A DNA stretch of 64,000 bases, from positions 11,942-75,941 of the forward strand of contig NZ_JBLWWU010000006.1 of NCBI RefSeq assembly GCF_048267785.1, read 5' to 3'. Made by a program: the position numbers and the translations under genes. A model generated the notes under the pieces. That model did no database searches. It was given only the letters and a program-made list of their open reading frames with translations, and had not been told where the DNA came from. The DNA is from Parasphingorhabdus sp. (GTDB lineage Bacteria; Pseudomonadota; Alphaproteobacteria; Sphingomonadales; Sphingomonadaceae). Shown in pieces: positions 14,356 through 30,575 of the stretch (position 1 is the stretch's first letter; each line of letters begins with the position of its first letter).

Positions 14356-16017
14356 CTAAAGATCTTTCAGCATATGGCGAGGCACCTTGTTCATGGCCGA
14401 TCGTGGTAGCGCATCGACAATCTTGAGATATTCCGGCCTTTTGAATTTTGCGATACCGTGTTCATTCATAAAATCTGTAAGGTCTTTGAGGGTAATTGTC
14501 TCGCCGGACATCGGTACGACCACGGCACAGACTTTCTCGCCCAATATACTGTCCGGTTTACCATATACCGCTGCTTCGAGTATCCGGGGATGCGATTGCA
14601 GAATCCCATCAAGCTCTTCAGGCGAAATGTTCATGCCTCCGCGGATGATCAGATCTTTGCAGCGCCCGACAAACCGGTAATATTGATTTTTATCGCCGGT
14701 AATTTCAAACAGGTCTCCGCTTCTGAAATAGCCATCGGGCGTAAAGGCTTCTGCATTGTCTTCCGGTGATTGATAATATCCGTCGAACACCGTCGATCCG
14801 GCGATTTCCAGTTCGCCGGGGACGCCCGGCTCGGTGATTTCTGCACCGCTGTCCTTGTCGATCAAGCGGGTATCGATGCGATCACCAATGCCCGTCGACC
14901 AGCTGAATTCGGGTCTTCCAAATCGGGGGAAGCAGGTCGCGCGGTCGCTCGTATCGGGGACGTCGACGGGTGTCCCAATCAGGGCCATGCCCTCATTCGA
15001 TCCGAACAGATTGAAAATGTCGATCCCGAAAGTCTCGGTAAACCCTTGCACCATCGCAGGGTCCAGCGGCGCGCTACCGGAAGCAATCGTCTTTACGCTT
15101 TCGAGAAACCCGGCCGCCTTGATCATGTCTTTTTGCAGAAGAAGTTTGCTCAATATCGCCGGTGGAGCGATCGTATAAGCGCACTGCTCGTCTTTCAGCT
15201 GTTGCAGATATGCCGCCGGCTCAAACGGATGGTGCAGGATCATTTTTGCCTTTGACTGGAGCCAGAGGAAAAGGAAACCACCTATCGCAGCCATATTGAT
15301 GAACGGGAAAGGACAAAGCATTGCCGCGCCGGTCGGGAGCTCTACCGGCTTTCCGCACATGACGCTGGATGACAACCAGTGATTGTGGCTGCGCGGTACG
15401 CCCTTTGGTCGTCCGGTGGTGCCGGATGTCCAACAGATTGTCAGTATATCATCAGCCGAATGGGCGAGCCCGTTCCGGTAATCCTGATAGGCTTGCGTCA
15501 CGTCAGCCTTTGACCCTGTCGCATCGCTATCGGAAGTGAATAGCAGCGGTGTACAACTGTCTGGCAAAATATCCAGAATCGGTTCTGCGAATGGAGCGCC
15601 GCGAAAATCCGTGAACGCGATATAGGCGCTGGGATCAATGGTCTGGGTAATATGACTGACTTCAAATGTTCCGTATTGAACCGCCATTGGGCTGACAATC
15701 AGTCCAAGCCTAGCGGCGGCCAGATAGACAAGGATAATCTCGACCGTATTGGGCAAATGGACAGCGATGCGGTCCCCCTGGCGCAATCCGGCCTCGAAAT
15801 ATCGCGATGCCAGCCGGTCGGCCAACAAATCGATTTCGCGAAAGGTCAGGCGTCTCGGGTCGCCGTGAACCAGATCGCCACGGTTGCTCGGATCTATCAA
15901 TGCAAGATCGTCTGGATGGGAAGCCAGCGCGGCGGAAAATATCTGGTCGAGAGTCGTGTTGCCCCACCATCCGGCCTGCTTCATGGCAGTGATTTTCTCA
16001 CATGATGACGTCTGCAT
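14356..16017 (-). CDS. Acyl-CoA synthetase (class I adenylate-forming enzyme)
   Basis: WTSGTTGRPKG, FGSNEG, RSGDL, RCKDLIIRGG and final KVPR motifs. Start at 16017 follows a GAGGGG SD. Confidence 0.93.
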   Translation of the reverse strand: MQTSSCEKITAMKQAGWWGNTTLDQIFSAALASHPDDLALIDPSNRGDLVHGDPRRLTFREIDLLADRLASRYFEAGLRQGDRIAVHLPNTVEIILVYLAAARLGLIVSPMAVQYGTFEVSHITQTIDPSAYIAFTDFRGAPFAEPILDILPDSCTPLLFTSDSDATGSKADVTQAYQDYRNGLAHSADDILTICWTSGTTGRPKGVPRSHNHWLSSSVMCGKPVELPTGAAMLCPFPFINMAAIGGFLFLWLQSKAKMILHHPFEPAAYLQQLKDEQCAYTIAPPAILSKLLLQKDMIKAAGFLESVKTIASGSAPLDPAMVQGFTETFGIDIFNLFGSNEGMALIGTPVDVPDTSDRATCFPRFGRPEFSWSTGIGDRIDTRLIDKDSGAEITEPGVPGELEIAGSTVFDGYYQSPEDNAEAFTPDGYFRSGDLFEITGDKNQYYRFVGRCKDLIIRGGMNISPEELDGILQSHPRILEAAVYGKPDSILGEKVCAVVVPMSGETITLKDLTDFMNEHGIAKFKRPEYLKIVDALPRSAMNKVPRHMLKDL

Positions 16018-16025
16018 ATATCCCC

Positions 16026-16043
16026 TCACTTGTTTAATCATAC
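16026..16043. promoter_or_regulatory. Cluster operator motif copy (15/18)
   Basis: TCACTTGTTTAATCATAC directly upstream of the CoA ligase start. Confidence 0.7.
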
Positions 16044-16095
16044 TTGGTAGAATTGCTATGCGGGAGTGTCAAGTTATGGCGCGGCAGCCCAATTA

Positions 16096-16113
16096 TAACT
16101 TGTATAAACATAC
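16096..16113. promoter_or_regulatory. Cluster operator motif copy (reference)
   Basis: TAACTTGTATAAACATAC; overlaps a putative -35 TTGTAT with TATGAT 18 nt downstream, ahead of the oxygenase. Confidence 0.75.
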
Positions 16114-16180
16114 TATATGGGATTATGATCTAATCAGTCGGTTAAACGACTCTCAAACAGATTATGCTCAGGAGGCTAAA

Positions 16181-17632
16181 ATGAATGCACCCTTCAAGGA
16201 ACCCAAAGCACCGTTCGGCCATGCTTATGGTGAAATGATAACTGGTCCATTTGCCCCGGTTCCGGATGAATCCGTGCTCACCGATTTGCCGGTTGAAGGA
16301 GAAATCCCTGCTGACTTGAACGGTGTCTATCTCCGCAATGGGCCAAATCCGCGCTTTGAACCACAAGGGGCCTACCATCCGTTTGATGGTGACGGAATGC
16401 TCCATGCCGCGGAATTTAGAAATGGCAAGGTGGTCTATCGGAACAAATGGGTGCGGTCCGAAGGCTGGCTTGAAGATGATGCAGCCGGGGAAGAAACCCA
16501 CTGGGGCATTCGGCAGACGTTAAAAGGCCGGACCGATATGGTGCTGGCCGATGCTGCCAATACCGATGTTCTGGGGCATGCCGGCTATGCCGTGGCGACT
16601 TGGTATCTTTCGGGAAAGCCGCATATCATTGATCCGATTACGCTCGAAACAATCGAGGCTGCGGAATATACCAGCGCACCGGGCAACGGGATTTCGGCTC
16701 ATGGCAAGGTCGATGAATATACCGGTGAACTGATGTTTTTCGACTATTTTGATTATGCACCATTCATGACCTACAGCGTTGTAAACCGGGAAGGAAAGCT
16801 GGTTCATAATGTTCCGATAGAATTGCCTGGGGACCGTCTGCCGCACGATATGGGAATCACGGAACACTATTCTATTTTGCATGATCTGCCCGTCTATCAT
16901 GATGAAGAAGCATTGAAGGCCGGACGGCACAAGATTCGGTTCAACTCCAAAATACCAACGCGCTTCGGCGTTATTCCCCGGCACGGGGCATCCGATAGCA
17001 TCAAATGGTTCGAATTCACGCCATGCTTTCTCTATCATGTGGTCAATTGCTGGGAAGAGGGCGATGAAGTGGTCATGGTAGCCTGCCGCTTCATGCCGAC
17101 GATGAAGGAAAATGGCGAATATGACGAGGCGCGCACTGCGAGGATGATCGCCGAGCTTGGCATGTATAGCCGCTTGTGGCGGTATCGGATGAATATGAAA
17201 ACCGGCGAGACGCACGAAGAATGTCTGAATGCCGATCATAATGTAGAATTTCCCAGCTATCACACCGCTGAAACAGGGCGACATACAAGCTGGACCTATG
17301 TGGTTGATCATAATCCTAACACTCTGCACTGGACCGGTATTCGCAAGCTCAACACCGATACGGGGGAGAGCGCCGGAGAGTGGTCGGACGGACATGACGA
17401 TTGCTGGTATAGCGAGCCCTGGTTTGCGCCGGCCGATGATCCGCAAAGTGAAGATCATGGTTATGTAATTACCTTTGTGTGGAATGAGAAAACCAGTGTG
17501 CAGCAGCTACAGGTGTTCGATGCGCTGGATCTCAACAAGGGGCCGATTGCCCGCGTGACGCTTCCCCGGCATGTCCCGGTCGGTTTTCACGCGTGCTGGA
17601 TGAAGCCGAGTCAGATTGCCAACTGGAACTAA
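16181..17632 (+). CDS. Carotenoid oxygenase family dioxygenase (CCO / lignostilbene dioxygenase, RPE65 superfamily)
   Basis: YLRNGPNP and HPFDGDGM motifs; four candidate iron-ligand His in SAHGK, LPHDM, LYHVVN and GFHAC. GGAGG SD before ATG 16181. Confidence 0.93.
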   Translation: MNAPFKEPKAPFGHAYGEMITGPFAPVPDESVLTDLPVEGEIPADLNGVYLRNGPNPRFEPQGAYHPFDGDGMLHAAEFRNGKVVYRNKWVRSEGWLEDDAAGEETHWGIRQTLKGRTDMVLADAANTDVLGHAGYAVATWYLSGKPHIIDPITLETIEAAEYTSAPGNGISAHGKVDEYTGELMFFDYFDYAPFMTYSVVNREGKLVHNVPIELPGDRLPHDMGITEHYSILHDLPVYHDEEALKAGRHKIRFNSKIPTRFGVIPRHGASDSIKWFEFTPCFLYHVVNCWEEGDEVVMVACRFMPTMKENGEYDEARTARMIAELGMYSRLWRYRMNMKTGETHEECLNADHNVEFPSYHTAETGRHTSWTYVVDHNPNTLHWTGIRKLNTDTGESAGEWSDGHDDCWYSEPWFAPADDPQSEDHGYVITFVWNEKTSVQQLQVFDALDLNKGPIARVTLPRHVPVGFHACWMKPSQIANWN

Positions 17633-17724
17633 ATGCCGGTCCCGGTAGAGAGGTCGCGACATAGCGGCAAGATCGCTGGATAATCCAGGCTGTTCGAGAT
17701 TATTCTTGGCAGTCTCGAGCGCGC

Positions 17725-18960
17725 CTATCTGGAAAGAACGGTAACGACGGTCACGCCTTCTTCGACATGGAGAAAGCCTCCGCCGTTTTCTGCGACACCA
17801 AGTCTGGCCCCTTCAACTTGCCGTGCACCGGCCTCGCCGCGCAGTTGCAATACCAGTTCCTCGAGCTGCGCGATTCCGGTTGCGCCGACAGGGTGACCTT
17901 TTGACATCAAACCGCCGCACGGGTTCACCACCACGGATCCGCCCAGCTTTGTCGCGCCGCTGGCGGTGAAGGCACCGCCTTCGCCCATCGGGCAAAGCTG
18001 GAGGTTTTCAATCTGTTGTATCTCGGCAAAGGCGCTCGCGTCGTGCAGTTCCACGACGTCAATATCCGCCGGGTCCACACCGGCTTGCGCATAGGCTATC
18101 GTGGCAGCACGCCGGCCTGCATGCTGGGCATAATCGGTCATCTCGCGCTTTTGTGCGGACGCTATGCCGACCCCCTTGATCTCGACAGCCCGTTTTTTCT
18201 GGTCGTCGGTGAGGGCGCTGCCCCGCGCCAAAATGACAGCAGCGCCACCGTCGCTTATCGGTGCACACATCGCCCGCGTGAATGGCCAGACGATCTGTTT
18301 GTCCGCCAGCACCTCTTCAACCGACATGTCTTGTCGATATTGCGATTTGGGATTGAGCGTAGAATGAAAATGGGCCTTGGCTGCCGCTGCTGCCAAATGT
18401 TCCTGCGTGGTGCCGAAAGTTTTCATATGCTGACGGGCCATGGCTGCATAGACGTCCATGAAGAAGCTGCGTTCCGCTGAATTGTCAGCGCTCTCGGGAA
18501 TGATGTCCCTGCCGATGGCGGACATACGCTCCGCGGTCTCGTCTACGATTTCAATATCGGTGCCGCCCATGAAAGCGGCGAACATTTTTTCGCGCCGGTC
18601 GGTAAAATACATTTTCTCTACGCCAACCGCCATCGTAATATCCGCCTGACCCGCGCGAATATGGTTGGCAGCGTTAAACACCGCACTTGATCCACTGGCG
18701 CAGGCATTCTCGATATTGAATATCGGCACACTGGGGAGTCCAGCCGCGCCAAGCGCAATCTGGCCGCGGATGGTGTTTTGTCCCTCCAGCATAGGCTGGC
18801 GCGTGTTCGAAAACCAGGCGGCCTCGATCCGGTCGGCTTCCAGTCCGGCATCGCGCAGGGCATCTGATACGACTTCGGTGGCGAGCATTTTCACGGATTT
18901 TTCTGGCCATTTCCGGAATGGCGTTGTTGCAGCCCCGATTATGTAAATATTGTCTTTCAT
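17725..18960 (-). CDS. Thiolase-family protein (SCP2-type)
   Basis: ENACASGS, ELHDAS, GHPVGATG and ENGGG motifs. Confidence 0.9.
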   Translation of the reverse strand: MKDNIYIIGAATTPFRKWPEKSVKMLATEVVSDALRDAGLEADRIEAAWFSNTRQPMLEGQNTIRGQIALGAAGLPSVPIFNIENACASGSSAVFNAANHIRAGQADITMAVGVEKMYFTDRREKMFAAFMGGTDIEIVDETAERMSAIGRDIIPESADNSAERSFFMDVYAAMARQHMKTFGTTQEHLAAAAAKAHFHSTLNPKSQYRQDMSVEEVLADKQIVWPFTRAMCAPISDGGAAVILARGSALTDDQKKRAVEIKGVGIASAQKREMTDYAQHAGRRAATIAYAQAGVDPADIDVVELHDASAFAEIQQIENLQLCPMGEGGAFTASGATKLGGSVVVNPCGGLMSKGHPVGATGIAQLEELVLQLRGEAGARQVEGARLGVAENGGGFLHVEEGVTVVTVLSR

Positions 18961-18964
18961 GATC

Positions 18965-18982
18965 TAACTTGTATAAACATAC
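18965..18982. promoter_or_regulatory. Cluster operator motif copy (18/18 identical to 16096-16113)
   Basis: TAACTTGTATAAACATAC, 5 nt upstream of the thiolase ATG. Confidence 0.75.
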
Positions 18983-19134
18983 CATTGTATATGCAAATCC
19001 TATTTGGCTCTTTTTCTCTGGCAATTTCCGTATGCGGTAGATCCAGAGGCAGGGAATTGACTATTGGCAATTCGGAGCCTCGTCCCATATGGTATGGCTA
19101 CGAGAGCCAGTCGCTAAACTTTGAAATTGCCTCC

Positions 19135-19149
19135 CAATAACGGTTATTG
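19135..19149. promoter_or_regulatory. Perfect palindrome upstream of the regulator gene
   Basis: CAATAAC-G-GTTATTG, extendable to 19131-19153 with one mismatch. Confidence 0.4.
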
Positions 19150-19199
19150 AGAGACACTTAGGCAAGATCTGGATGTTTCGGCTCCGCCGACCGACAAGA

Positions 19200-20189
19200 A
19201 TGAAGGACAATGTAGCTTTGACACAAAAATTGGTTCCAGCTTGTTCCATTTGGCGCGCTCTGGAAGTGGTCGGGGATACACCGACACTTTTGATCATCCA
19301 GAGCTATTGGCTTGGTGCGCGTCGGTTCGAAGAGTTTAGAAAGCAAACGGGGTTGCTCAAGGCGCTGGTCAGCAACCGGCTGAAGAAACTTGTCGAGGAG
19401 GGCTGTTTCAAGAAAGTCGTCTATTCGGAGCGACCGCTGAGATACGAATATGTTGGAACCGAGAAATTACGTGACCAGTATAAGCTTTCTCTTGCGATGC
19501 TACACTGGGAACGGAAATGGTTTGACGGGACCAATGAGCACAAGGTCCACATCGAACTGCGGCACAAGAATTGTGGAAAGGTTACTGATCCAGCACCCGT
19601 ATGCAGTTGTTGCAGATCAAACGTCAAGGCGCGGGAAACCGACTGGCGCCTGGGGCCTGGTGGCGGCGAGATGGTCGCGGAATATGGTCGCCGGCGGCAG
19701 GACGCGTTCAATAAGGGGCGGCCACATACCGCTCTTTTCGACAATTTCAGCTATGTCATCGGAGACCGCTGGCGGTCGTTGATCATTCGCTCGATCTTTC
19801 GAAATCTGAACAAATATGACGAGATATTGGGCGACACCCAAATGGCGACGAATATTCTGACGGATCGCCTAAAAAGCCTTTGTGAAGAAGGGTTTCTGAA
19901 GAAGGAACAATATCAGTCGAATCCCAAGAGATTCTCCTACAAGCTGACCGACAAGGGGCTTGATGTCTATCCGGTGATGATGTTGATAATGGAGTGGGGT
20001 GATAAATGGTATCCCGATCCAAAAGGGCCGCCGCTGCTGTTGACCCATCGTCCGTGCAACCATCCGTTGCAGATCGATATGGCATGTTCTGCCTGCGGTG
20101 AATCGGTCGATCTGGGTGATCTGGACTATCAAATTCTCGAAGAAAAAGAGGGGACATCTGACAATATGTTAACCTCGGCAGCAGTTTGA
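19200..20189 (+). CDS. Tandem (fused double) HxlR/DUF24 winged-helix regulator
   Basis: Two HxlR repeats (CSIWRALEVVGDT...LVSNRLKKLVEEG and YVIGDRWRSLI...ILTDRLKSLCEEG), each followed by an HxxC...CxxC tail. Confidence 0.9.
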   Translation: MKDNVALTQKLVPACSIWRALEVVGDTPTLLIIQSYWLGARRFEEFRKQTGLLKALVSNRLKKLVEEGCFKKVVYSERPLRYEYVGTEKLRDQYKLSLAMLHWERKWFDGTNEHKVHIELRHKNCGKVTDPAPVCSCCRSNVKARETDWRLGPGGGEMVAEYGRRRQDAFNKGRPHTALFDNFSYVIGDRWRSLIIRSIFRNLNKYDEILGDTQMATNILTDRLKSLCEEGFLKKEQYQSNPKRFSYKLTDKGLDVYPVMMLIMEWGDKWYPDPKGPPLLLTHRPCNHPLQIDMACSACGESVDLGDLDYQILEEKEGTSDNMLTSAAV

Positions 20190-20287
20190 TGTTTGGGAAT
20201 AGCGGGAAAGAGATGTTTGTAATCTGTCACCGGCGAGCCCGGTAAACGGGCAGCGTCAGCTTTCAGCATCCTGACGACCTGCCGCCG

Positions 20288-21604
20288 CTATTCAGCCATC
20301 AGATGCTCGGCAATAGCCTGGTAGGCTGGCAGCGACGTTGCATCAAAACTTCCATTCGTGGCGACCGGGTGGGAGGCGAATCTGACAATCACCATTTCCG
20401 CTGCGGGATCGATATAGATGGTCTGGCCATGGATTCCCCGTGCCGTATAAGCGCCATGGGCATTTTGGGAAACCCACCATTGATTGCGGTAGCTCCAGCC
20501 AGGCAATGTGGCATATCCCGCCTTGGCAAAATCCGATTTGCTCGCCCCGGCCCGCATATCTTCAACAACCGACTTGGGCAGAATCTGTTGGCCATTGAAG
20601 AATCCGCCCCGTCGCATCATCTCGCCAAAGCGGGCCTGATCACGCAACACCGCGTTAAACCCGCCCGCTGCAAAACCAGTGCCGGCGGAATCAATCAGCA
20701 TATAGGCATCCATTTCTGTGCCCAGTTTGCGCCAGATATGCGTTTCCAGCGCCGCGACCGCCGTTTGTCCGGTTACACGCTGGATCAGCCAGCCCAGAAC
20801 TTCGCTATTGACCGATTTGTAAATAAATTGCCCGCCATGCTCGCCTTCCTTTTTCAGCGTCGGAAGATAATCGTAAAATGTCTTCTTTCCGTCATATCCA
20901 GGCGGTGGTGGCAGGATACCGCCTGCATAGGAAAATTCCCAGACATCGGAATTCGGGTCGGCATATTTTTCGGAATAGCTGATCCCGGTCGTCATATCGA
21001 GCACTTGTCTGACCGTTGCATCGGCAAAAGCAGAACCCCGCATTTCGGGGATATATTTTGTGACCAGTGCGTCTGGGTCAAGCTTCCCTTCGCTGATCAA
21101 CATCGCCGCAAGCGTTCCAAAATAGGATTTTGTTACGGAGAAGGACATGTGCGGCAAGTCGGGTTTCGCGGCACCGAAATAACGTTCGTAGACGATCCGT
21201 CCCTTGTGCAGCACGATGATCGAGTCGGTATAATTTACCTTGAGCGATTGTGCCCAGGTCATGCTCTGGTCACTGCCAAGCGGCAAAAACTGCACGTCAT
21301 CAAGATCAGATCGCTCTGCTCTCGGCAATAGCGATACCGCGCCATTGCCTCTCGCTACATTTTTGGTCGGCACCAGTTCGCGCATATGGGAAAATGACCA
21401 GCGCGACTTCGGGAATTGGTAAAACCCCATATCGCCATGACGGACGATCTTGTCGGGTGGAACCGGATCGCCTTGCATCCATCCCATGGTTACCGGATCG
21501 GAATCCTCCGGTCGCTGATCGGTAGATTGTGCAAAGCTGATTGTCGAGGCACATAATGCAAAAATGGCCATGCCCGAACTGATAATCCGTTTGGTCATGG
21601 CCAT
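20288..21604 (-). CDS. Periplasmic serine hydrolase (class C beta-lactamase / NylB-like esterase-amidase)
   Basis: SxxK (SVTK), YKS and RGIHGQ motifs; signal peptide; 23 bp downstream of the TBDR. Confidence 0.88.
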   Translation of the reverse strand: MAMTKRIISSGMAIFALCASTISFAQSTDQRPEDSDPVTMGWMQGDPVPPDKIVRHGDMGFYQFPKSRWSFSHMRELVPTKNVARGNGAVSLLPRAERSDLDDVQFLPLGSDQSMTWAQSLKVNYTDSIIVLHKGRIVYERYFGAAKPDLPHMSFSVTKSYFGTLAAMLISEGKLDPDALVTKYIPEMRGSAFADATVRQVLDMTTGISYSEKYADPNSDVWEFSYAGGILPPPPGYDGKKTFYDYLPTLKKEGEHGGQFIYKSVNSEVLGWLIQRVTGQTAVAALETHIWRKLGTEMDAYMLIDSAGTGFAAGGFNAVLRDQARFGEMMRRGGFFNGQQILPKSVVEDMRAGASKSDFAKAGYATLPGWSYRNQWWVSQNAHGAYTARGIHGQTIYIDPAAEMVIVRFASHPVATNGSFDATSLPAYQAIAEHLMAE

Positions 21605-23907: not shown

Positions 23908-23942
23908 CAGAATCCCCTCCCAGGACATTTTCATTTAACGTT

Positions 23943-23960
23943 GTCTTTATATGCAAGTTA
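23943..23960. promoter_or_regulatory. Cluster operator motif copy (14/18, reverse strand)
   Basis: Reverse complement reads TAACTTGCATATAAAGAC; upstream of the TBDR. Confidence 0.55.
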
Positions 23961-24120
23961 CTTGTATCTGTATCGGTATTCCGAACATCCAGTTCATTAC
24001 ATCCACCCGATGCCATAAACTGTATTTCAACCAAAAACCCCGCAGACAAACTAACCTAATTCCCTTTGTTATCGCAATTTTCTCAAAAGGAGCTTGCCAT
24101 AACATATCACCGATTATAAG

Positions 24121-24138
24121 GTATGTTTAAACAAGTCA
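24121..24138. promoter_or_regulatory. Cluster operator motif copy (16/18, reverse strand)
   Basis: Reverse complement reads TGACTTGTTTAAACATAC; a weaker CTTG-N6-CATA copy lies at 24093-24106. Confidence 0.7.
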
Positions 24139-24183
24139 ATACTGCAAATTCAATGCGCATTGGCGATCACAAAAGGGGGGCAA

Positions 24184-25146
24184 ATGCACTTCGCATCCGA
24201 TCAAAATCTGACGCTGCCTGCAATCGCAGCGCCAATGTTTCTAATATCCGGACCGGAAATGGTGATTGCCGCATCCAAAGCCGGGATTATCGGGGCCTTT
24301 CCGACCCCCAATGCCCGCACATCTGAAATATTGGATGACTGGATGGCGCAGATCACAACAACTCTTGCGGCCGAGCCGAATGCTGCGCCTTGGGCCGCCA
24401 ATCTGGTTGTTCACCGATCCAATCCGCGTCTGGCGGAAGATGTTGCCTGCGTCGTCAAATATAAGCCGCCACTGGTCATCACGGCGTTGGGGAGCCCGGC
24501 CGAAATTATCGAACAGGTGCACAGCTATGGTGGTCTGGTTTATGCGGACGTCAATTCCGTTGCGTTTGCGCGCAAGGCCGCCGCAGCCGGTGTCGATGGA
24601 CTTGTTCTGGTAGGCGCTGGTGCGGGTGGCCATACCGGCCAGATTGCCGGTTTCGCCTTTGTCGAAGAGGTCAGAAAATTCTGGGATGGCGCAATTGTTC
24701 TGGGCGGCGCCATTTCCAGTGGTCACGCGATCCGAGCAGCCGAAGTGCTCGGCGCAGACCTTGCCTATCTGGGAACATCGCTAATTCCCTGCGAAGAAAG
24801 CCTGGCTGTGCAGGAATATAAGCAGATGGTGCTCGATGCCGGTGCCGAGGATATCATACCGTCCAACGCCATTACCGGCGTGACGGCCAACTGGCTGAAA
24901 CAAAGTCTGATCAATGCCGGACATGATCCCGACAATATGGGTGGTCCGGGCAAAATCAATTTTGCCGATCCCCAAAATGACAGAAAGGCCTGGAAGCACG
25001 TTTGGGCTGCGGGGCAGGGCGTCGGCGCGGTGACGCAAAACGCGCCGATCGCTGATATCATCAGCCGGATGGGGGCGGAATATGACGATGCGATAAAGCT
25101 TCCCGCTTTCGGTCGCAATGCAGGAGACGACAATGACCAAAGGTGA
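24184..25146 (+). CDS. Nitronate monooxygenase / FabK-like FMN oxidoreductase
   Basis: AAPMFLIS, GAGGHTG, GGAISSG and YLGT motifs. Confidence 0.88.
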   Translation: MHFASDQNLTLPAIAAPMFLISGPEMVIAASKAGIIGAFPTPNARTSEILDDWMAQITTTLAAEPNAAPWAANLVVHRSNPRLAEDVACVVKYKPPLVITALGSPAEIIEQVHSYGGLVYADVNSVAFARKAAAAGVDGLVLVGAGAGGHTGQIAGFAFVEEVRKFWDGAIVLGGAISSGHAIRAAEVLGADLAYLGTSLIPCEESLAVQEYKQMVLDAGAEDIIPSNAITGVTANWLKQSLINAGHDPDNMGGPGKINFADPQNDRKAWKHVWAAGQGVGAVTQNAPIADIISRMGAEYDDAIKLPAFGRNAGDDNDQR

Positions 25147-26365
25147 AGTTTTTATCCTCGGCGGTGCGCAGACTGATTTTGCGGCCAATTATGCGCGCGA
25201 AGGCAAAGGCATTTTTGACCTGTTCCGCGACGTCACCGAAGATGCATTTGAAGCATCCGGCATCGAACCCAAAGACGTCGAAGCGGCCCATGTCGGTAAT
25301 TTTGTTGCCGAACTGTTTGCCGGACAGGGGCAACTCGGTGGTTTTCTGGGTCATGTTCATCCCGATCTTTCCGGTGTCCCGGCATCGCGCCATGAGGCCG
25401 CTTGCGCATCGGGCAGCATCGCGATGCTGGCGGCGAGCGCGGAAATAGAGGCGGGGCGTTATGGGCTGGCCCTCGTTATCGGGCTGGAACTCATGCGCAA
25501 TGTACCGGGCCAACGGGCGGCAGAACATCTCGGCGCAGCCGCTTGGACGGGTCGTGAAGCGAATGAAGCGCGCTATTTGTGGCCCTATATGTTTTCCGAG
25601 CTGGCGGATGAATATGGCGAACGCTACGGTCTCGATGCGGCCCATTTGCGGGCGATTTCGGAAAATAATTTTTCCAATGCCAAGCGAAATTCCAGAGCAC
25701 AGACCCGCGATTGGAAAATCACTCCCGAGCATTTTGCGGATAATGATGAGTTTAATCCGCCGATCGAAGGATGCCTTCGCAAATCAGATTGCGGGCAGGT
25801 AACAGACGGAGCGGCGGCGATTTTCCTGGCCTCGCGCGAATATGCGGAAGCCTATGCCCGACGGCGCGGGATATCGCTCGACAGCATTCCCCGTATCAAG
25901 GGCTGGGGGCATAGTACTGCACCAATGCTATATCGGACAAAAATCGAGGAAAGCCGCGACAGCGCCTATGTCTTTCCGCATGTCCGCAGCGCGATGATGG
26001 ATTCCCTGAAACGCGCAGGAATGTCCGATATCTATCAAGTCGACGGGGTCGAAGTGCATGACTGCTTTTCGATCACCGAATATATGATCATCGACCATTT
26101 CGGTATTACTCCGCCGGGCGAAAGCTGGCGTGCGATCGAGGATGGTACGATCAAGCTTGGCGGCAAGCTGCCGGTCAATCCGTCCGGTGGGCTTATCGGT
26201 CTGGGGCATCCGGTTGGCGCTACTGGCATCCGTATGGCGCTGGACAGCGCCCGACAGGTCACCGGCGATGCGGGCGATTATCAGGTGGAAGGTGCACAGA
26301 ATTTTGCGACATTCAACGTCGGTGGCAGCGCGACGACTTCGGTCAGCTTTGTCATCGGGACATAG
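25133..26365 (+). CDS. Acetyl-CoA acetyltransferase (SCP2-type thiolase)
   Basis: EAACASG, VHDCF, GHPVGATG and FNVGG motifs. Confidence 0.9.
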   Translation: MTKGEVFILGGAQTDFAANYAREGKGIFDLFRDVTEDAFEASGIEPKDVEAAHVGNFVAELFAGQGQLGGFLGHVHPDLSGVPASRHEAACASGSIAMLAASAEIEAGRYGLALVIGLELMRNVPGQRAAEHLGAAAWTGREANEARYLWPYMFSELADEYGERYGLDAAHLRAISENNFSNAKRNSRAQTRDWKITPEHFADNDEFNPPIEGCLRKSDCGQVTDGAAAIFLASREYAEAYARRRGISLDSIPRIKGWGHSTAPMLYRTKIEESRDSAYVFPHVRSAMMDSLKRAGMSDIYQVDGVEVHDCFSITEYMIIDHFGITPPGESWRAIEDGTIKLGGKLPVNPSGGLIGLGHPVGATGIRMALDSARQVTGDAGDYQVEGAQNFATFNVGGSATTSVSFVIGT

Positions 26366-26391
26366 CGTCACAAGATCAGGATTTCAGGAGA

Positions 26392-27588
26392 TTGAGCAAT
26401 AGCATGAGCAATTCTACATATATTTATGATGCGGTGCGCACGCCACGCGGCAAAGCAAAGGCCGATGCGCCACTGGCACAGCTCTCTCCGCAGGAATTGA
26501 TCAGTCAACTGCACACGGCGTTGAAAGACCGTAATCAAGGCGCACTGGAAAACCCTGATTCCCTTCTTCTCGGTTGTGTTGGTCAATTTGGTAGCCAGGG
26601 CGGGAATATTGCGCTCGTGTCAAAATTGCATGCCGGCATTCCCGATAGTGCGTCGGCCAGCACCCTGAATAATTATTGCGCATCGGGACTGACGGCAATC
26701 GGCCAGGCGTTTGAATCCGTAGCCTCCGGCAATGCCAAAGCGGTTCTGGCTGGCGGTGTTGAAATGATGTCTCAGGTTCCCTTCATGGGCGACAAGGCCA
26801 GCTATTATGATGATGATCGTTTCCCCGCCAGAACCCGATATATCCCCGTTGTCCTGGCAGCTGATCGATTGGCGCAGAGGGAGGGGATCACAAGACAGCA
26901 GCTCGATGAAGCCGCGCTGACTTCACAGCAGAAAGCCGCCGTTGCCCAGGATTCCGGGGCGCTTCAGAAATCCAGAATAGCGATTAAAAATGCCAATGGG
27001 TCGGTTGTGCTGGATCGGGATGAATGCGTTCGCGGTAAAACCACTGCGGCATCGCTTGCATCCATGGCGCCTGGTTTCGGTGAACTGGCGACACATTATG
27101 CCGAGGCACTGGGTGACGAAACCTTTGATCCTATCCACACCATATCGCACGCACCACCCATATGTGACGGTGCGGGTCTCGCTTTGGTCGGTGGTGCCGG
27201 ACTGGGCGAGGGTGAGCCGCGCGCCCGGATTCTGGCCTATGCGGATTGCGGTGCCGATCCGGCGGCGGCACTCACAGCCGGCTTTGCATCCATGGAACGG
27301 GCGCTGGAACGCGCGGGGCTATCGCTGGAACAGATAGACCGGATCGAATTCATGGAAGCGTTCGGGGTCACTATCGCAAAATTTCTGCGGGATTATCCGG
27401 TCAATCCAGAAAAGGTCAACGTCAGCGGCGGTCATATCGCAAAAGGCCATCCTCTCGGAGCGAGCGGAGCGATATTGATTTCGTCACTGCTGGATTGCCT
27501 TGATGAGGCGGATCAGAAAATCGGAATGGTTGTGGTCAGCGGGGCGTCCGGATCCGGCGGCGCAATGATTGTAGAGCGTCTGAACTGA
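26392..27588 (+). CDS. Classical-fold thiolase-like protein with divergent active site
   Basis: YDAVRTPRGK, NNYCASG and GHPLGASG present; MEAF replaces NEAF and S-G-A replaces the C-terminal CxG. Confidence 0.85.
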   Translation: MSNSMSNSTYIYDAVRTPRGKAKADAPLAQLSPQELISQLHTALKDRNQGALENPDSLLLGCVGQFGSQGGNIALVSKLHAGIPDSASASTLNNYCASGLTAIGQAFESVASGNAKAVLAGGVEMMSQVPFMGDKASYYDDDRFPARTRYIPVVLAADRLAQREGITRQQLDEAALTSQQKAAVAQDSGALQKSRIAIKNANGSVVLDRDECVRGKTTAASLASMAPGFGELATHYAEALGDETFDPIHTISHAPPICDGAGLALVGGAGLGEGEPRARILAYADCGADPAAALTAGFASMERALERAGLSLEQIDRIEFMEAFGVTIAKFLRDYPVNPEKVNVSGGHIAKGHPLGASGAILISSLLDCLDEADQKIGMVVVSGASGSGGAMIVERLN

Positions 27589-27631
27589 CCGTCGGCCCCA
27601 CGTGATATTGAAACAGGAATAGGAATACGAA

Positions 27632-29347
27632 ATGACCAAATCGCTGTCAGAACTGGTGTCACAGCATCAAGAGCTGATTGAAAAGGCAGTGGATGCCGTC
27701 AACACGCGCCGCAACTGGAGTCCGTTCAAGGATTCTCCCAGCCGCAAATTTTATCCCGAAGGCAGGCCTGAAGAGGGCAAGGCTGCCTTTGAAGCAAGGA
27801 TCGGACAGAAATACGAAATTGATCAGCCTGGCATCACGGGTTGGACCGGGGCAGAAGTGTCACCCTATACCGGCAAACAACTCGGCATCACCTATCCCCT
27901 GAGTGATCCCGATATACTGGTGGACAGCGCGAAGACTGCGATGGCCAGCTGGGGCAGGACCACTGCTGAAGAGCGTATTGCCCTGTGTCTGGAGATGGCG
28001 CTGCGGATCTACGATCGCGGTTTTGAAATGGCGCACAGTATCATGCACGTGGCTGGGCAAAGCTTTACGCAAGCCTATAGCGGCAGCGGACCCAATGCGC
28101 TGGATCGCGGTATAGAAGCACTGGCCTATGCGGCAAAGGCGATGAAGGACGTAGCGCCGTCGGGGACCTGGGAACGGCGCTTCGGCGCAGATGACATTGT
28201 GCTGGAAAAAAAATACCGGATGGTGCCGCGCGGCATAGGCCTGGTCATTTGCTGCGCTTCATTTCCGACATGGAATGCCTATCCCGCGATGTTTGCCAGT
28301 CTTGCCACCGGAAATCCGGTGATCGTAAAACCGCATCCGATCGCAATTTTGCCGATTGCGATCGCCGTGGAAGAATGCCGTGCAGTTCTCGCTGATTTTG
28401 GTTTTGATCCCAATCTGGTAACGATGGCCGCGGATACGCCTGAAGAGCCTGTGGCCCAGAAATATATCGACAATCCGCATGTCCAGATCATCGATTTCAC
28501 CGGCAGCCCGCGCTATGGCGGCTATCTGGAAAAGACCGTCACCGAAAAACTGCTTTATACTGAAACGGCGGGGCTGAATTCGGTAGTGATCGACTCCACC
28601 GAAAACCTCGCTGAAACCGCGAAAGCCATAGCGCGTGGAACCTGCCTGTTCTCGGCGCAAATGTGTACCAGCCCGCAAAACATCCATATCCCGAAATCCG
28701 GTATCATGACGGCCGACGGGCATGCCAGCTTTGACGATGTTGCTGCGGCACTGGTTTCGGCGGTCGACGATATCGCTAACGCGCCTGCGGCTGCGGCCGG
28801 TGTGATGGGGACAGTGCAGGCTCAGAACAGCGTCGATCTCGTCTTGGATCTGATGGAGCGCCTGGACGGGCACGAGGGCGCGCAAGTCATTCGCAGAGCG
28901 TCGCCCTATGTACATCCTGATTTCCCGGATGCGCGCACCTTGACGCCGCTGATAGTGACACTTGAAGCAGGCAATGAGGAAATATACAGTGAAGAGCATT
29001 TCGGCCCTGTGCTGTTCATCATTGCCGCTGAAGATGCCGAGGGTGCCGTGAATGACGCGACCCGTCTGGCCCGCCAACATGGGGCTATTTCATCCTTTCT
29101 GTATTCAACCGATGCAGATTTTGTTGACTGGGCGGTTGAAGAATATGTCCGCAGCGGGATGAATCTCACCATCAACATGCACGGCGCGATGTGGATTAAC
29201 TTTGCCGCTGCTTATAGCGATTATCATGTCACCGGGCTGAACCCTGCCGGCAATGCCTGTCTTGCGGATCTCGCGTTTGTCGCCAGCCGGTTCCGCATTG
29301 TGCAATATCGCCAGCCTGCATCATCTGTCGCTTCAATCGCGGCTTGA
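27632..29347 (+). CDS. paaN: PaaN-like aldehyde dehydrogenase
   Basis: CASFPTWNAYPAMFASLATGNPVIVKPHP, DFTGS, QMCTSPQN and EEHFGP motifs. Confidence 0.85.
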   Translation: MTKSLSELVSQHQELIEKAVDAVNTRRNWSPFKDSPSRKFYPEGRPEEGKAAFEARIGQKYEIDQPGITGWTGAEVSPYTGKQLGITYPLSDPDILVDSAKTAMASWGRTTAEERIALCLEMALRIYDRGFEMAHSIMHVAGQSFTQAYSGSGPNALDRGIEALAYAAKAMKDVAPSGTWERRFGADDIVLEKKYRMVPRGIGLVICCASFPTWNAYPAMFASLATGNPVIVKPHPIAILPIAIAVEECRAVLADFGFDPNLVTMAADTPEEPVAQKYIDNPHVQIIDFTGSPRYGGYLEKTVTEKLLYTETAGLNSVVIDSTENLAETAKAIARGTCLFSAQMCTSPQNIHIPKSGIMTADGHASFDDVAAALVSAVDDIANAPAAAAGVMGTVQAQNSVDLVLDLMERLDGHEGAQVIRRASPYVHPDFPDARTLTPLIVTLEAGNEEIYSEEHFGPVLFIIAAEDAEGAVNDATRLARQHGAISSFLYSTDADFVDWAVEEYVRSGMNLTINMHGAMWINFAAAYSDYHVTGLNPAGNACLADLAFVASRFRIVQYRQPASSVASIAA

Positions 29348-29390
29348 TGGGTATGACAGGATCGGGATTTATTCTTAAGGAGCAGTTCTG

Positions 29391-30575
29391 ATGAGCGGCC
29401 TGCTAGAAGGCATCCGGGTCCTTGATTTCGGTCGCTATATCGCCGGCCCTTTTTGCGCGACGCTGCTCGCCGATCTGGGCGCCGATGTGATCCGCGTCGA
29501 AAGGCCGGAGGGGGGAGAGGACCGTTACACGGTGCCGGTCACTGCGGAAGGCGAGGGTGCCTATCATATGCAGATTGGCCGCAACAAGAAGGGCATGACG
29601 CTCAACCCGGCGAAGCCCGAGGGCCAGGAAATCCTTCGCCGTCTCGTCGCAACCGCCGATGTCGTCATCGTCAATCTGCCGCCACCTGCACTCAAGAAGC
29701 TCGGGTTGGACTATGATTCATTGCGGGCGATCAAACCGGATATCATTCTGACCATGGGGTCTGCCTTTGGTTCCACCGGGCCTTATACGTCGCGCGGCGG
29801 TTTTGATACGGTGGCGCAGGCTATGTCGGGCGCCATGTATCTCAGCGGCACGCCTGGCAAGCCATCGAAATCCTTCGCGCCTTATTGTGACTTCGGTACC
29901 GCTTCGCTCAGCGCCTTTGGCACGCTGGCTGCGATCATCCACAGGATGAAAACCGGGGAAGGACAAATAGTCGAGGCATCGCTGCTGAATACCGCACTGA
30001 CCTTCAACAATGCTGCGTTGATCGAGCAGTCTGAATTGCAGCTATGCCGTGAGGGCACGGGGACAAGGGGGCAATATAATGCACCGACTGATTCTTATCG
30101 GACGAAGGACGGCTGGATCATGGTCCAGATCGTTGGTGGCGGTTTGTTCAAGCGCTGGGCCGATATGATCGGGGAAGATCACTGGTTGTCGGACGAACGT
30201 TTCGCGACCGACCAGTCGCGGGGCGATCACGGTGAAATTATCGGCGACCGGATGCGTACATGGTGCGAGGACAGGACCAACGAGCAGGCCCTTGCTACAC
30301 TGGCCGGAGCGGGTATTCCGTGCGGGGAATTGTTGAGTCCGCAAGAAGTGCTTGAAAATGAGCATGTAGTTGGAAGCGAGGCTTTTCAGCCTGTTGACTA
30401 TCCGGGTCTGCCCTTACCGGCTCCCTTGGCCCGGCATCCGGTGCGATATTCCGAAACGCCAGTGGATGATTTTGCCCGCGCACCACTGCTCGGTGAACAT
30501 ACGGATGCGATAATGGCAGAACTGGGATTTGGCGCGGAAGAGATTGCCAAGCTGCGAGGATTGCGAATTATCTAG
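29391..30575 (+). CDS. CaiB/BaiF family (class III) CoA transferase
   Basis: LEGIRVLDF, LADLGADVIRVE, RNKKG and catalytic Asp region PYCDF. Confidence 0.93.
   Translation: MSGLLEGIRVLDFGRYIAGPFCATLLADLGADVIRVERPEGGEDRYTVPVTAEGEGAYHMQIGRNKKGMTLNPAKPEGQEILRRLVATADVVIVNLPPPALKKLGLDYDSLRAIKPDIILTMGSAFGSTGPYTSRGGFDTVAQAMSGAMYLSGTPGKPSKSFAPYCDFGTASLSAFGTLAAIIHRMKTGEGQIVEASLLNTALTFNNAALIEQSELQLCREGTGTRGQYNAPTDSYRTKDGWIMVQIVGGGLFKRWADMIGEDHWLSDERFATDQSRGDHGEIIGDRMRTWCEDRTNEQALATLAGAGIPCGELLSPQEVLENEHVVGSEAFQPVDYPGLPLPAPLARHPVRYSETPVDDFARAPLLGEHTDAIMAELGFGAEEIAKLRGLRII

What the first reader, a model, noticed from the sequence alone, without database searches (positions are those of the whole stretch)
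14356..30575. Uncharacterised catabolic pathway built around a C=C-cleaving oxygenase
Seen: eleven contiguous genes in divergent units encode a TBDR with a periplasmic serine hydrolase, a CCO/LSD dioxygenase with four candidate His ligands, a PaaN-like ALDH, an acyl-CoA ligase, three thiolase-fold proteins, an NMO/FabK-like flavoenzyme, a class III CoA transferase and a regulator. Known: CCO/LSD enzymes cleave alkenes of carotenoids, stilbenes or isoeugenol to aldehydes. Inference: import, periplasmic de-esterification, alkene cleavage, oxidation to acid, CoA activation and thiolytic shortening of an unknown polyene, terpenoid or aryl-alkene. No paaABCDE/paaK, enoyl-CoA hydratase or hydroxyacyl-CoA dehydrogenase lies in the cluster, so this is neither the phenylacetate pathway nor plain beta-oxidation. 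I do not recognise this arrangement as a described pathway.
Basis: partly seen in the sequence, partly recalled or inferred. Interest (0 to 1): 0.8.

Follow-up and report, generated by a model that had tools for sequence, protein, structure and literature searches.

The report
Conserved alkene-cleaving oxygenase catabolic regulon
Eleven neighbouring genes in this marine alphaproteobacterium share one control site and recur together in many marine and freshwater bacteria; they probably import a fatty, esterified polyene (most plausibly carotenoid-derived), cut a double bond and break the pieces down as CoA esters, a pathway I found described nowhere.

Summary
In detail: all eleven genes are there, and 14356-30575 are the exact cluster limits. 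They form a regulon. A 17-bp operator (AACTTGTATAAACATAC) has 4 sites in the window, all in the cluster's three divergent promoter regions. It has only 6 sites in the 3.48-Mb genome. The same motif lies 35-120 bp upstream of the oxygenase gene in many Alpha- and Gammaproteobacteria.

The oxygenase has 58-80% identical orthologues at 548 places in species-representative genomes. In 30 of 46 fully flanked loci it sits with at least 3 core partners: ligase, two thiolase types, FMN reductase, tandem HxlR, PaaN-like ALDH or CoA-transferase. The receptor and esterase are lineage-specific. Exported esterases of unrelated folds replace each other.

The oxygenase is not a lignostilbene dioxygenase: the phenol-binding Tyr101 and Lys134 are Ile and Trp. 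Its nearest solved relative is plant CCD1. The "PaaN" belongs to an oxygenase-linked sister group of true PaaN, and the genome has no paaA/paaC. The CoA-transferase resembles dicarboxylate transferases, not racemases. Two of the three thiolase-fold proteins lack a canonical catalytic Cys.

Best reading: uptake and CoA-dependent breakdown of a non-phenolic lipophilic polyene, most plausibly carotenoid or apocarotenoid esters. The substrate is unproven. I found no published description.

The parts
14356..16041 (-). Acyl-CoA ligase (AMP-binding). The true start is possibly an internal Met at 16017.
   Evidence: PF00501 196 bits plus PF13193. No NCBIfam equivalog reaches its cut-off; the best hits are long/medium-chain and cyclohexanecarboxylate-CoA ligases. 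Orthologues (37-57% id) lie near the CCO in 22/46 full loci.
16027..16043 (+). Operator copy (CACTTGTTTAATCATAC, 3 mismatches) overlapping the annotated ligase start
16097..16113 (+). Operator copy (AACTTGTATAAACATAC, exact), 68 bp upstream of the CCO start
   Evidence: A site at the same relative position is conserved in many orthologous loci.
16181..17632 (+). Carotenoid-cleavage-type non-haem iron oxygenase (CCO), 483 aa, no signal peptide
   Evidence: PF03055 399 bits. Start ATG at 16181 after AGGAGG. 4 His and 3 Glu invariant. Nearest PDB entry is CCD1 at 240 bits, ahead of LsdA at 178. LSD Tyr101/Lys134 align to Ile109/Trp141. AF2 model pLDDT 82.6, TM 0.83 to CCD1.
17725..18960 (-). thlA: SCP2-type thiolase-fold protein with the nucleophile Cys but HDAS in place of HDCF
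   Evidence: PF22691/PF00108. Nearest structure is SCP2-thiolase type-1 6hsj, 210 bits. HDA(S/T) in 10/10 orthologues.
18966..18982 (+). Operator copy (exact) between thlA and the regulator gene
19173..20189 (+). Tandem (two-domain) HxlR-family regulator, the presumed binder of the operator
   Evidence: PF01638, two stretches. Orthologues (30-54% id) lie next to the CCO in 22/46 loci.
20288..21604 (-). Exported beta-lactamase-fold serine hydrolase (family VIII esterase-like)
   Evidence: PF00144 127 bits. N-terminal signal peptide ...SFAQS and an SVTK motif. 23-bp gap to the TBDR gene upstream on the same strand. Conserved in the cluster only here and, weakly, in Pseudovibrio.
21628..23934 (-). 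TonB-dependent outer-membrane receptor
   Evidence: Plug plus barrel domains, signal peptide. Orthologues 42-49% id in Litorimonas, Hellea and other loci. Operator-like sites precede the TBDR in L011 and L039.
24121..24137 (-). Operator copy (GACTTGTTTAAACATAC, 2 mismatches) in the TBDR/NMO divergent region
24160..25146 (+). NMO/FabK-like FMN enzyme, predicted enoyl-(CoA) reductase. The likely real start is the ATG at 24184 behind GGGGGG.
   Evidence: PF03060 66 bits. FabK TIGR03151 87 bits, below its cut-off. Nearest structures are FabK enoyl-ACP reductases. Orthologues 45-59% id in 21/46 loci.
25118..26365 (+). thlB: SCP2-type thiolase with a complete catalytic set (Cys, HDCF, GHP)
   Evidence: NF004936 660 bits against a cut-off of 375. 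Nearest structure is T. brucei SCP2-thiolase 4bi9. Motifs invariant in 41 sequences. Present in 26/46 loci.
26392..27588 (+). thlC: thiolase homologue with the nucleophile Cys and His, but MEAF for NEAF and Ser for the second catalytic Cys
   Evidence: PF00108/PF02803. Nearest structures are 3svk and M. tuberculosis FadA Rv0859; the alignment shows Cys->Ser and Asn->Met. S/A/Q at that site in 45 orthologues. Two subtypes with different neighbours.
27632..29347 (+). PaaN_2-like NAD(P)-dependent aldehyde dehydrogenase of the CCO-linked subgroup
   Evidence: TIGR02288 618 bits against a cut-off of 578.75. 5uju 508 bits. CCO-linked orthologues score 522-615 bits and paa-linked ones 778-907 bits. 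No PaaA/C in the genome.
29391..30575 (+). Family III CoA-transferase, dicarboxylate-transferase-like
   Evidence: PF02515 366 bits. Nearest are 4ed9 and SUGCT 9br6; MCR scores only 73 bits. Best NCBIfam hits are succinate-glutarate and succinyl-CoA:mesaconate CoA-transferases, all below their cut-offs.

Best explanation
This is a dedicated regulon, controlled through a 17-bp operator that the tandem HxlR regulator presumably binds. It takes up and degrades a lipophilic, non-phenolic alkene or polyene. The most plausible substrate is carotenoid-derived: xanthophyll or apocarotenoid esters from algal or bacterial biomass.

Proposed route:
1. The TonB-dependent receptor imports the compound.
2. 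The exported beta-lactamase-fold esterase removes an acyl or alcohol group in the periplasm.
3. The cytoplasmic CCD1-like oxygenase cleaves a C=C bond into two carbonyl fragments.
4. The PaaN-like ALDH oxidises aldehyde ends to acids.
5. Mono-acids are activated by the ATP-dependent ligase, and di-acids by the SUGCT-like CoA-transferase.
6. The FabK-like FMN enzyme reduces conjugated enoyl-CoA bonds.
7. The SCP2-type thiolase-fold proteins (a type suited to 2-methyl-branched substrates), paired with the Cys-less thiolase homologue, split off acetyl- or propionyl-CoA.

Shown here: gene identities, co-regulation signal, cross-class synteny, absence of LSD specificity residues, and separation from true PaaN. 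Inferred: the order of steps, every substrate, and the regulator-operator pairing.
For: - Operator: 4 sites in the window, all in the three divergent promoter regions, against 0.03 expected. Only 6 sites in the whole genome. The same motif lies 35-120 bp upstream of the CCO in many alpha- and gammaproteobacterial loci, including loci where the CCO stands alone.
- Distribution: 548 relatives in species-representative genomes. 30/46 fully flanked loci carry at least 3 core partners.
- CCO specificity: nearest to plant CCD1 (240 bits; 31% id, TM 0.83) rather than LSD. The best NCBIfam hit is the apo-carotenoid 13,14-dioxygenase model. The LSD catalytic Tyr101/Lys134 (PMC8191317) are Ile/Trp here, and the Trp is invariant.
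- Accessory genes recruited elsewhere fit a hydrophobic, isoprenoid-like ester: exported tannase-family and alpha/beta esterases, lipocalin-like proteins, CrtI-like FAD oxidoreductases, DUF1295 (steroid-reductase-like), SDRs, ACADs and HMG-CoA reductase. Halieaceae clusters carry 2-3 CCO paralogues.
- The ALDH subgroup is CCO-linked, not paa-linked.
- The CoA-transferase is dicarboxylate-type, which would suit a dialdehyde-derived diacid.
Against: - There is no experimental or expression data: no RNA runs hold this sequence.
- There is no hydratase or hydroxyacyl-CoA dehydrogenase in the cluster, so thiolysis needs help from elsewhere or a different chemistry.
- thlA and thlC lack canonical catalytic residues, so 'thiolytic shortening' may be wrong in detail.
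- Characterised tannase-family esterases act on aromatic esters (my own knowledge, not checked here), which points away from carotenoids.
- There is no inner-membrane transporter in this cluster.
- Identity to CCD1 is only 31%, and structural similarity does not separate CCD1 from LSD.
- The host makes its own carotenoids: crtY, crtI and crtB are present. Endogenous turnover is therefore not excluded.
Confidence: 0.5

Rival explanations
1. The same regulon logic holds, but the substrate is another lipophilic alkene or polyene rather than a carotenoid. Candidates are aryl-polyene or flexirubin-type bacterial pigment esters, retinoid-unrelated polyenoic acids, isoprenoid quinone side chains, or oxidised polyunsaturated lipids.
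For: Nothing in the sequence fixes the substrate. Tannase-family esterases (7 loci) are known for aromatic esters (my own knowledge) and flexirubins are aryl esters (my own knowledge). The ligase, enoyl reductase and thiolases would suit an unbranched polyenoic acid. The CCO is equally far from all characterised equivalogs: 235, 215 and 181 bits against cut-offs of 650-800.
Against: The best sequence and profile matches are to carotenoid and apocarotenoid enzymes. SCP2-type thiolases, CrtI-like oxidoreductases, HMG-CoA reductase and multiple CCO paralogues fit methyl-branched isoprenoid polyenes better. No CCO is known to cut isolated, non-conjugated alkenes (my own knowledge).
Confidence: 0.25
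2. A lignin- or plant-phenolic pathway: the oxygenase is a lignostilbene, isoeugenol or resveratrol-type dioxygenase acting on 4-hydroxy-aryl alkenes released from aromatic esters.
For: Public annotations call several orthologues lignostilbene dioxygenase. LsdA and NOV1 match at TM 0.82-0.83. Tannase-family esterases and a DsbA/HCCA-isomerase-like gene occur in some loci.
Against: The phenol-activating Tyr101 and Lys134, conserved and catalytic in LSDs, are Ile and an invariant Trp here. The LSD equivalog models score 215 and 181 bits against cut-offs of 800 and 650. No vanillin, protocatechuate or other ring-cleavage genes were seen in the window cluster or among the recurrent neighbour families of the related loci that I annotated.
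Confidence: 0.07
3. Endogenous role: turnover of the cell's own carotenoids, or production of an apocarotenoid signal or retinal, rather than nutrition.
For: The host encodes crtY, crtI and crtB and a second CCO paralogue. The HxlR family often senses aldehydes or electrophiles (my own knowledge).
Against: A TonB receptor and an exported esterase belong to the same operator-controlled unit. Transporters (TBDR, MFS, ABC, BCCT) recur in related loci. Ligase, CoA-transferase and thiolases indicate mineralisation, not signal synthesis.
Confidence: 0.08
4. An aldehyde or electrophile detoxification island, for example for algal polyunsaturated aldehydes, in which the oxygenase is incidental.
For: An HxlR-type regulator, an ALDH and an ene-reductase-like flavoenzyme are typical detoxification parts (my own knowledge).
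Against: The oxygenase is the most conserved member, and the operator sits directly upstream of it in most lineages. The ALDH is present in only 24% of loci.
Confidence: 0.05

Closest known systems
Plant CCD1 carotenoid 9,10(9',10')-dioxygenase (Osmanthus fragrans, PDB 7vud/9m6z), and biochemically tested bacterial carotenoid oxygenases (NACOX1, MtCCO Rv0654, SaCCO; review PMC5133782)
   Same: Same fold and the same 4-His/3-Glu iron site. It is the best sequence match (240 bits, 31% id, TM 0.83). The best NCBIfam model is the apo-carotenoid 13,14-dioxygenase. Like them it lacks the phenol-binding pair of LSDs.
   Different: Only about 31% identical, and below every equivalog cut-off. It is shorter in the dome region, where CCD1 carries insertions. 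It is embedded in a CoA-dependent catabolic regulon, whereas those enzymes are known as isolated activities or as makers of volatiles and signals.
Lignostilbene-alpha,beta-dioxygenase pathways of sphingomonads (LsdA, LSD4, NOV1) in lignin-dimer catabolism
   Same: A CCO-family enzyme opens a catabolic route by cleaving an alkene into aldehydes that are then oxidised. TonB-dependent uptake of the substrate is used in sphingomonads (my own knowledge).
   Different: Tyr101 and Lys134 are missing. The downstream genes are CoA ligase, CoA-transferase, thiolase and FMN reductase, not vanillin or protocatechuate funnelling.
PaaN (TIGR02288, PaaN_2) of the phenylacetate catabolon
   Same: Same ALDH subfamily architecture (about 570 aa). 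The score is just over the model cut-off (618 against 578.75). It is 508 bits to Burkholderia 5uju.
   Different: There is no PaaA/PaaC in the genome. CCO-linked members score 522-615 bits, whereas the six sampled genomes with 778-907-bit members all carry paaA/paaC, and in three of them on the same contig within 1-20 kb. It is therefore a sister group with another substrate.
Steroid and bile-acid side-chain and ring C/D catabolism (FadD3, IpdC, FadA5/6, Ltp2-type proteins)
   Same: The same toolbox: an acyl-CoA ligase, an NMO-family enoyl-CoA reductase (IpdC), SCP2-type thiolase-fold proteins including catalytically repurposed ones (Ltp2), and CoA-transferase-fold enzymes. This comparison rests on my own knowledge of those systems.
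   Different: There are no steroid ring oxygenases (KshA, HsaC and the like). A CCO initiates instead. The FadD3 and CasG models are far below their cut-offs.

Membership tests
Carotenoid cleavage oxygenase / RPE65 superfamily (PF03055) | Pfam model over the gathering score | tested here: met
   399 bits against 27
Carotenoid cleavage oxygenase / RPE65 superfamily (PF03055) | Four iron-ligating His and three second-shell acidic residues | tested here: met
   H174, H222, H286, H470 and E179, E356, E412 are invariant in 19 orthologues and align with the His motifs of CCD1 and LsdA.
Carotenoid cleavage oxygenase / RPE65 superfamily (PF03055) | Seven-bladed beta-propeller fold | tested here: met
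   AF2 model pLDDT 82.6; TM 0.77-0.83 to CCD1, LsdA, NOV1 and ACO
Lignostilbene dioxygenase (LSD/NOV1 type) | Tyr-101 and Lys-134, which hydrogen-bond the substrate's 4-hydroxyl | tested here: not met
   They align to Ile109 and Trp141. Trp141 is invariant in the orthologues. The role of the residues is taken from PMC8191317.
Lignostilbene dioxygenase (LSD/NOV1 type) | NCBIfam equivalog score | tested here: not met
   NF053778 215 bits against 800; NF053780 181 bits against 650
Apo-carotenoid 13,14-dioxygenase / CCD1-type carotenoid dioxygenase | Equivalog-level sequence membership | tested here: not met
   NF052295 is the best hit, but at 235 bits against a cut-off of 675. 31% id to CCD1.
Apo-carotenoid 13,14-dioxygenase / CCD1-type carotenoid dioxygenase | Cleavage of carotenoid or apocarotenoid double bonds | not testable with these tools
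   Needs an enzyme assay.
PaaN (TIGR02288) of phenylacetate degradation | Score over the curated cut-off | tested here: met
   618 bits against 578.75, but CCO-linked orthologues range 522-615 bits and straddle the cut-off.
PaaN (TIGR02288) of phenylacetate degradation | Occurs together with the PaaABCDE oxygenase | tested here: not met
   No PF05138 match in the 91%-complete genome. All six sampled genomes with 778-907-bit members have PaaA/C.
SCP2-type thiolase (thlB) | Nucleophile Cys, HDCF-loop Cys, GHP His | tested here: met
   All invariant in 41 sequences. NF004936 660 bits against 375.
SCP2-type thiolase (thlA) | HDCF-loop catalytic Cys | tested here: not met
   HDA(S/T) in 10/10 sequences; the nucleophile Cys and GHP are kept.
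Canonical degradative/biosynthetic thiolase (thlC) | NEAF Asn and the CxGGG acid/base Cys | tested here: not met
   MEAF, and Ser in place of Cys, against 3svk and Rv0859. M/H/N and S/A/Q across 45 orthologues.
Family III CoA-transferase versus alpha-methylacyl-CoA racemase | Closer to transferases than to racemases | tested here: met
   PF02515 366 bits. SUGCT 180 bits and 4ed9 190 bits against MCR 73 bits. The best NCBIfam hits are succinate-glutarate and mesaconate CoA-transferases, none over its cut-off.
Classical beta-oxidation cluster | Enoyl-CoA hydratase and 3-hydroxyacyl-CoA dehydrogenase present | tested here: not met
   None among the ORFs of 14.2-30.8 kb. SDRs and ACADs occur only in some related loci.

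The most novel reading that the evidence does not exclude
This is the first recognisable bacterial pathway for mineralising carotenoid-derived polyenes. It is an HxlR-controlled regulon present in hundreds of marine and freshwater proteobacterial species. CCD1-like oxygenases cut the polyene. Two parallel CoA modules then process the two fragments: ligase, SCP2-thiolase and Cys-less thiolase in one, and ALDH, CoA-transferase and an HDCF-less thiolase-fold protein in the other. Both use unconventional thiolase-fold C-C cleavage. This would give a genetic handle on how algal pigments enter, or escape, the marine dissolved organic carbon pool.
Probability: 0.4. Interest if true: 0.85.

Novelty: new variant of a known kind. 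Interest (0 to 1): 0.7.

Why it matters
Carotenoids are made on a vast scale by phytoplankton, and their breakdown products have been proposed as precursors of refractory marine dissolved organic matter (my own knowledge). Yet I found no described bacterial gene set for consuming them.

A widespread regulon with a recognisable operator and culturable carriers makes the question directly testable. Carriers include Litorimonas cladophorae, Hyphomonas beringensis, Congregibacter brevis, Halioglobus japonicus, Thalassotalea profundi, Pseudovibrio axinellae and Curvibacter.

The finding also flags three things:
- A systematic mis-annotation: 'PaaN' and 'lignostilbene dioxygenase' names on these genes.
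- Two thiolase-fold families with missing catalytic residues whose chemistry is unknown.
- A source of soluble bacterial CCD1-like enzymes of possible use in apocarotenoid biocatalysis.

Tried and rejected
- The CoA_transf_3 gene as an alpha-methylacyl-CoA racemase: rejected (MCR 73 bits against 180-190 bits for transferases).
- A DUF35 partner or a hydratase hidden in small ORFs of the cluster: none.
- Phenylacetate pathway: no paaA/paaC in the genome.
- LSD-type specificity: the catalytic pair is absent.
- Fold search to separate CCD1 from LSD: not discriminating, TM 0.82-0.83 for both.
- Expression evidence: only DNA and metagenome runs hold the sequence, no RNA.
- Literature: nine full-text searches combining carotenoid cleavage or oxygenase with TonB, thiolase, CoA ligase, HxlR, ionone, catabolism, marine or regulon. 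One was used only to confirm the LSD residues. None of the others gave a description of this cluster.
- A proper phylogeny against ACO, LSD, Ado, NACOX1 and SaCCO could not be built, because characterised sequences cannot be imported. Profile and PDB bit-score ranking was used instead.
- The context of the second CCO paralogue (contig C28) showed no link to this regulon.


Full report
**1. What is there**

ORF listing and Pfam/NCBIfam scans confirm eleven genes that fill 14356-30575 with almost no spare DNA:
- ligase (-)
- CCO (+)
- thlA (-)
- tandem HxlR (+)
- beta-lactamase-fold hydrolase (-) and TonB-dependent receptor (-), 23 bp apart on one strand
- a five-gene plus-strand unit: NMO/FabK-like, thlB, thlC, ALDH and family III CoA-transferase

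The long ORF 15884-17632 is the oxygenase. Its real start is the ATG at 16181, behind AGGAGG, giving 483 aa. The esterase and the receptor carry signal peptides; the oxygenase does not. Small-ORF listing shows no hidden DUF35, hydratase or dehydrogenase gene.

**2. It is one regulon**

An earlier first-reader note on this same stretch mentioned an operator at every promoter, so I read the three divergent intergenic regions.

- I found AACTTGTATAAACATAC twice exactly, at 16097 and 18966.
- Two near copies lie at 16027 (3 mismatches) and at 24121 on the minus strand (2 mismatches).
- At up to 3 mismatches these are the only four matches in 64 kb, against 0.03 expected.
- They are four of only six matches in the whole 3.48-Mb assembly.
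- In the related loci the same motif, consensus AACTTG(C/T)ATAAACATAC, lies 35-120 bp upstream of the oxygenase start. This holds in Hellea, Litorimonas, Henriciella, Parvibaculaceae, Parvularcula, Congregibacter, Pseudohalioglobus, Pseudovibrio and several uncultured Gammaproteobacteria. It also holds where the oxygenase stands without partners (L042, L044, L046).
- Similar sites lie upstream of the receptor gene in Litorimonas (L011) and Thalassotalea (L039).

That the tandem HxlR protein binds the site is an inference from its constant adjacency.

**3. Conservation**

The oxygenase has more than 120 cluster representatives at 62-80% identity. They come from marine Alphaproteobacteria (Hyphomonas, Hellea, Erythrobacter, Pseudovibrio) and Gammaproteobacteria (Halioglobus, Congregibacter, Cellvibrionaceae, Thalassotalea).

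A scan of one genome per species found 548 relatives. The 80 best include freshwater Burkholderiales at 58-60% identity.

Among the 46 loci with full 10-kb flanks:

| Partner | Share of loci |
|---|---|
| thlC | 65% |
| thlB | 57% |
| ligase | 48% |
| HxlR | 48% |
| NMO | 46% |
| ALDH | 24% |
| thlA | 20% |
| CoA-transferase | 20% |
| receptor | 22% |
| beta-lactamase-fold esterase | 2% |

- 30 loci have at least three core partners and 10 have none.
- Gene-order maps and neighbour statistics show two recurrent modules.
  - M1 is ligase, thlC type 1, thlB and NMO. Type-1 thlC is adjacent to thlB in 25 of 32 cases.
  - M2 is thlC type 2, ALDH, thlA, sometimes NMO, and CoA-transferase. Type-2 thlC is adjacent to the ALDH in 6 of 7 cases.
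- The window has a merged form with a single type-2 thlC between thlB and the ALDH.
- Each module holds one CoA-activating enzyme, one SCP2-type thiolase-fold protein and one Cys-less thiolase homologue. This suggests two parallel branches for the two cleavage fragments (inference).

**4. Accessory genes elsewhere**

De novo clustering of all ORFs in the 80 loci, with Pfam/NCBIfam on representatives, shows recurrent recruits:
- exported or lipoprotein tannase-family esterases (7 loci; N-termini) and alpha/beta hydrolases
- Lipocalin_5 proteins (9 loci)
- CrtI/HpnE-like FAD oxidoreductases (8 loci)
- DUF1295, steroid-5-alpha-reductase-like membrane proteins (7 loci)
- SDRs, ACADs, APH-type kinases, MFS, ABC and BCCT transporters, DUF3604 lipoproteins, and a DsbA/HCCA-isomerase-like protein
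- a class II HMG-CoA reductase (2 loci)

Halieaceae and Luminiphilus clusters (L049, L063, L074) contain two or three CCO paralogues and two ligases.

Unrelated esterase folds are recruited again and again, exported for the beta-lactamase-fold and tannase-family ones. This argues for an esterified external substrate. Multiple oxygenases and isoprenoid-flavoured helpers argue for a polyene with several cleavable bonds.

**5. The oxygenase**

- Solved structures, by sequence: plant CCD1 240 bits, LsdA 178, NOV1 173, VP14 171, ACO 141.
- NCBIfam: apo-carotenoid 13,14-dioxygenase 235 bits, LSD 215, NOV2 181. All are far below their cut-offs.
- The AF2 model (pLDDT 82.6) matches CCD1 at TM 0.83 and 31% identity, and LsdA and NOV1 at TM 0.82-0.83 and 26-27% identity. 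Structure alone therefore does not discriminate.
- Residues do discriminate. [quoted passage not shown]
- In the HMMER alignment to LsdA, the Phe is kept as part of the FDGDG stretch; that this stretch is general to CCOs is my own knowledge.
- Tyr-101 aligns to Ile109 and Lys-134 to Trp141. Trp141 is invariant in 19 orthologues.
- The enzyme is therefore not an LSD-type phenol-dependent dioxygenase. Bacterial carotenoid-cleaving CCOs are known only as isolated activities (PMC5133782).

**6. The other enzymes**

- *ALDH.* TIGR02288 gives 618 bits against a cut-off of 578.75. Ten CCO-linked orthologues score 522-615 bits. In a 301-genome sample of the phylum, the six other genomes with a match score 778-907 bits. 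All six carry PaaA/PaaC, in three on the same contig as the PaaN-type gene, 1-20 kb away. The present genome has none.
- *CoA-transferase.* It is closest to a Brucella CaiB/BaiF protein, to SUGCT, and to the succinate-glutarate and mesaconate CoA-transferase models. It is not close to racemases. That fits diacid intermediates, such as oxidised dialdehydes from double cleavage of a polyene (inference).
- *NMO-like protein.* It is nearest to FabK enoyl reductases. Established members of this family include the steroid enoyl-CoA reductase IpdC (my own knowledge).
- *thlB.* It is a complete SCP2-type thiolase. That type handles 2-methyl-branched 3-oxoacyl-CoAs (my own knowledge).
- *thlA.* It keeps the nucleophile Cys but has HDA(S/T) instead of HDCF.
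- *thlC.* It resembles M. tuberculosis FadA but has MEAF for NEAF and Ser (S/A/Q in orthologues) for the acid/base Cys. Their chemistry (thiolase, retro-aldolase as in Ltp2, or non-catalytic partner) is open.

**7. Host context**

The assembly is an alphaproteobacterium whose best oxygenase relatives are in Hyphomonadaceae and Erythrobacter.
- It is rich in TonB receptors, SCP2-type thiolases, ACADs and CoA-transferases.
- It makes carotenoids: crtY, crtI and crtB are present.
- It has a second CCO (31% identical) on contig C28, next to a fatty-acid-desaturase-family gene.
- The sequence occurs in seawater metagenomes, but no RNA data hold it.

**8. Verdict**

It is a conserved, operator-controlled catabolic regulon built around a non-phenolic CCD1-like oxygenase. 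The uptake and esterase parts are lineage-specific and the thiolase-fold components are unconventional.

The substrate is most plausibly carotenoid-derived, about 0.5. Another lipophilic polyene stands at about 0.25. Phenolic alkenes are unlikely, below 0.1.

Nine full-text searches found no description of it. Earlier notes of this scan flagged what appears to be the same regulon in Brevundimonas, Phenylobacterium and others. I treat those as leads, and tested two of them here: the operator and the PaaN branch.

Noticed in passing
window 26392-27588 (thlC) and 17725-18960 (thlA): Two thiolase-fold families lack canonical catalytic residues throughout their orthologous groups. thlC has Asn->Met/His and Cys->Ser/Ala/Gln. 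thlA has HDCF->HDA(S/T). thlC comes in two subtypes, each tied to a different neighbour (thlB or the ALDH).
   Followed up: partly
L049, L063, L074 (Halieaceae/Luminiphilus loci): Clusters with two or three CCO paralogues, two ligases, a CrtI-like FAD oxidoreductase, a DUF1295 reductase-like membrane protein and an MFS transporter around the same HxlR/NMO/thlB core.
   Followed up: partly
G000 contig C16, L105:1069-3144 (+): A 691-aa bacterial lipoxygenase homologue (PF00305, 218 bits) lies about 4 kb from the crtB, crtI and crtY genes (L105:7267-10958).
   Followed up: no
G000 contig C28, L102:3098-4540 (+): A second CCO paralogue (31% identical, PF03055 364 bits) sits back-to-back with a fatty-acid-desaturase-family gene (L102:4546-5505). 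No operator or core partners are nearby.
   Followed up: partly
G000 contig C2:255814-257094: A 55%-identical paralogue of the exported beta-lactamase-fold esterase exists elsewhere in the genome. Its context was not examined.
   Followed up: no
L040:14270-15394: A class II HMG-CoA reductase gene lies inside a two-CCO locus of an uncultured Pseudomonadales genome. This hints at a link to 3-methyl-branched (isoprenoid) acyl-CoA metabolism.
   Followed up: no
window 30716-33438: Directly downstream and convergent is a PRTase, alpha/beta-hydrolase and erythromycin-esterase-family gene trio. It has no operator and is not conserved with the regulon.
   Followed up: no
window 16027-16043 and 18966-18982: Two operator copies overlap or abut the annotated start codons of the ligase and thlA. 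Either repression acts at the ribosome-binding site or the ligase start is an internal Met (16017).
   Followed up: no
tool control: The PF05138 (PaaA/PaaC) control set did not ring in Escherichia coli, although K-12 carries paa genes (my own knowledge). Either the control strain lacks them or the first-look filter can miss them. This is a small caveat on the 'no paaA/C' result.
   Followed up: no
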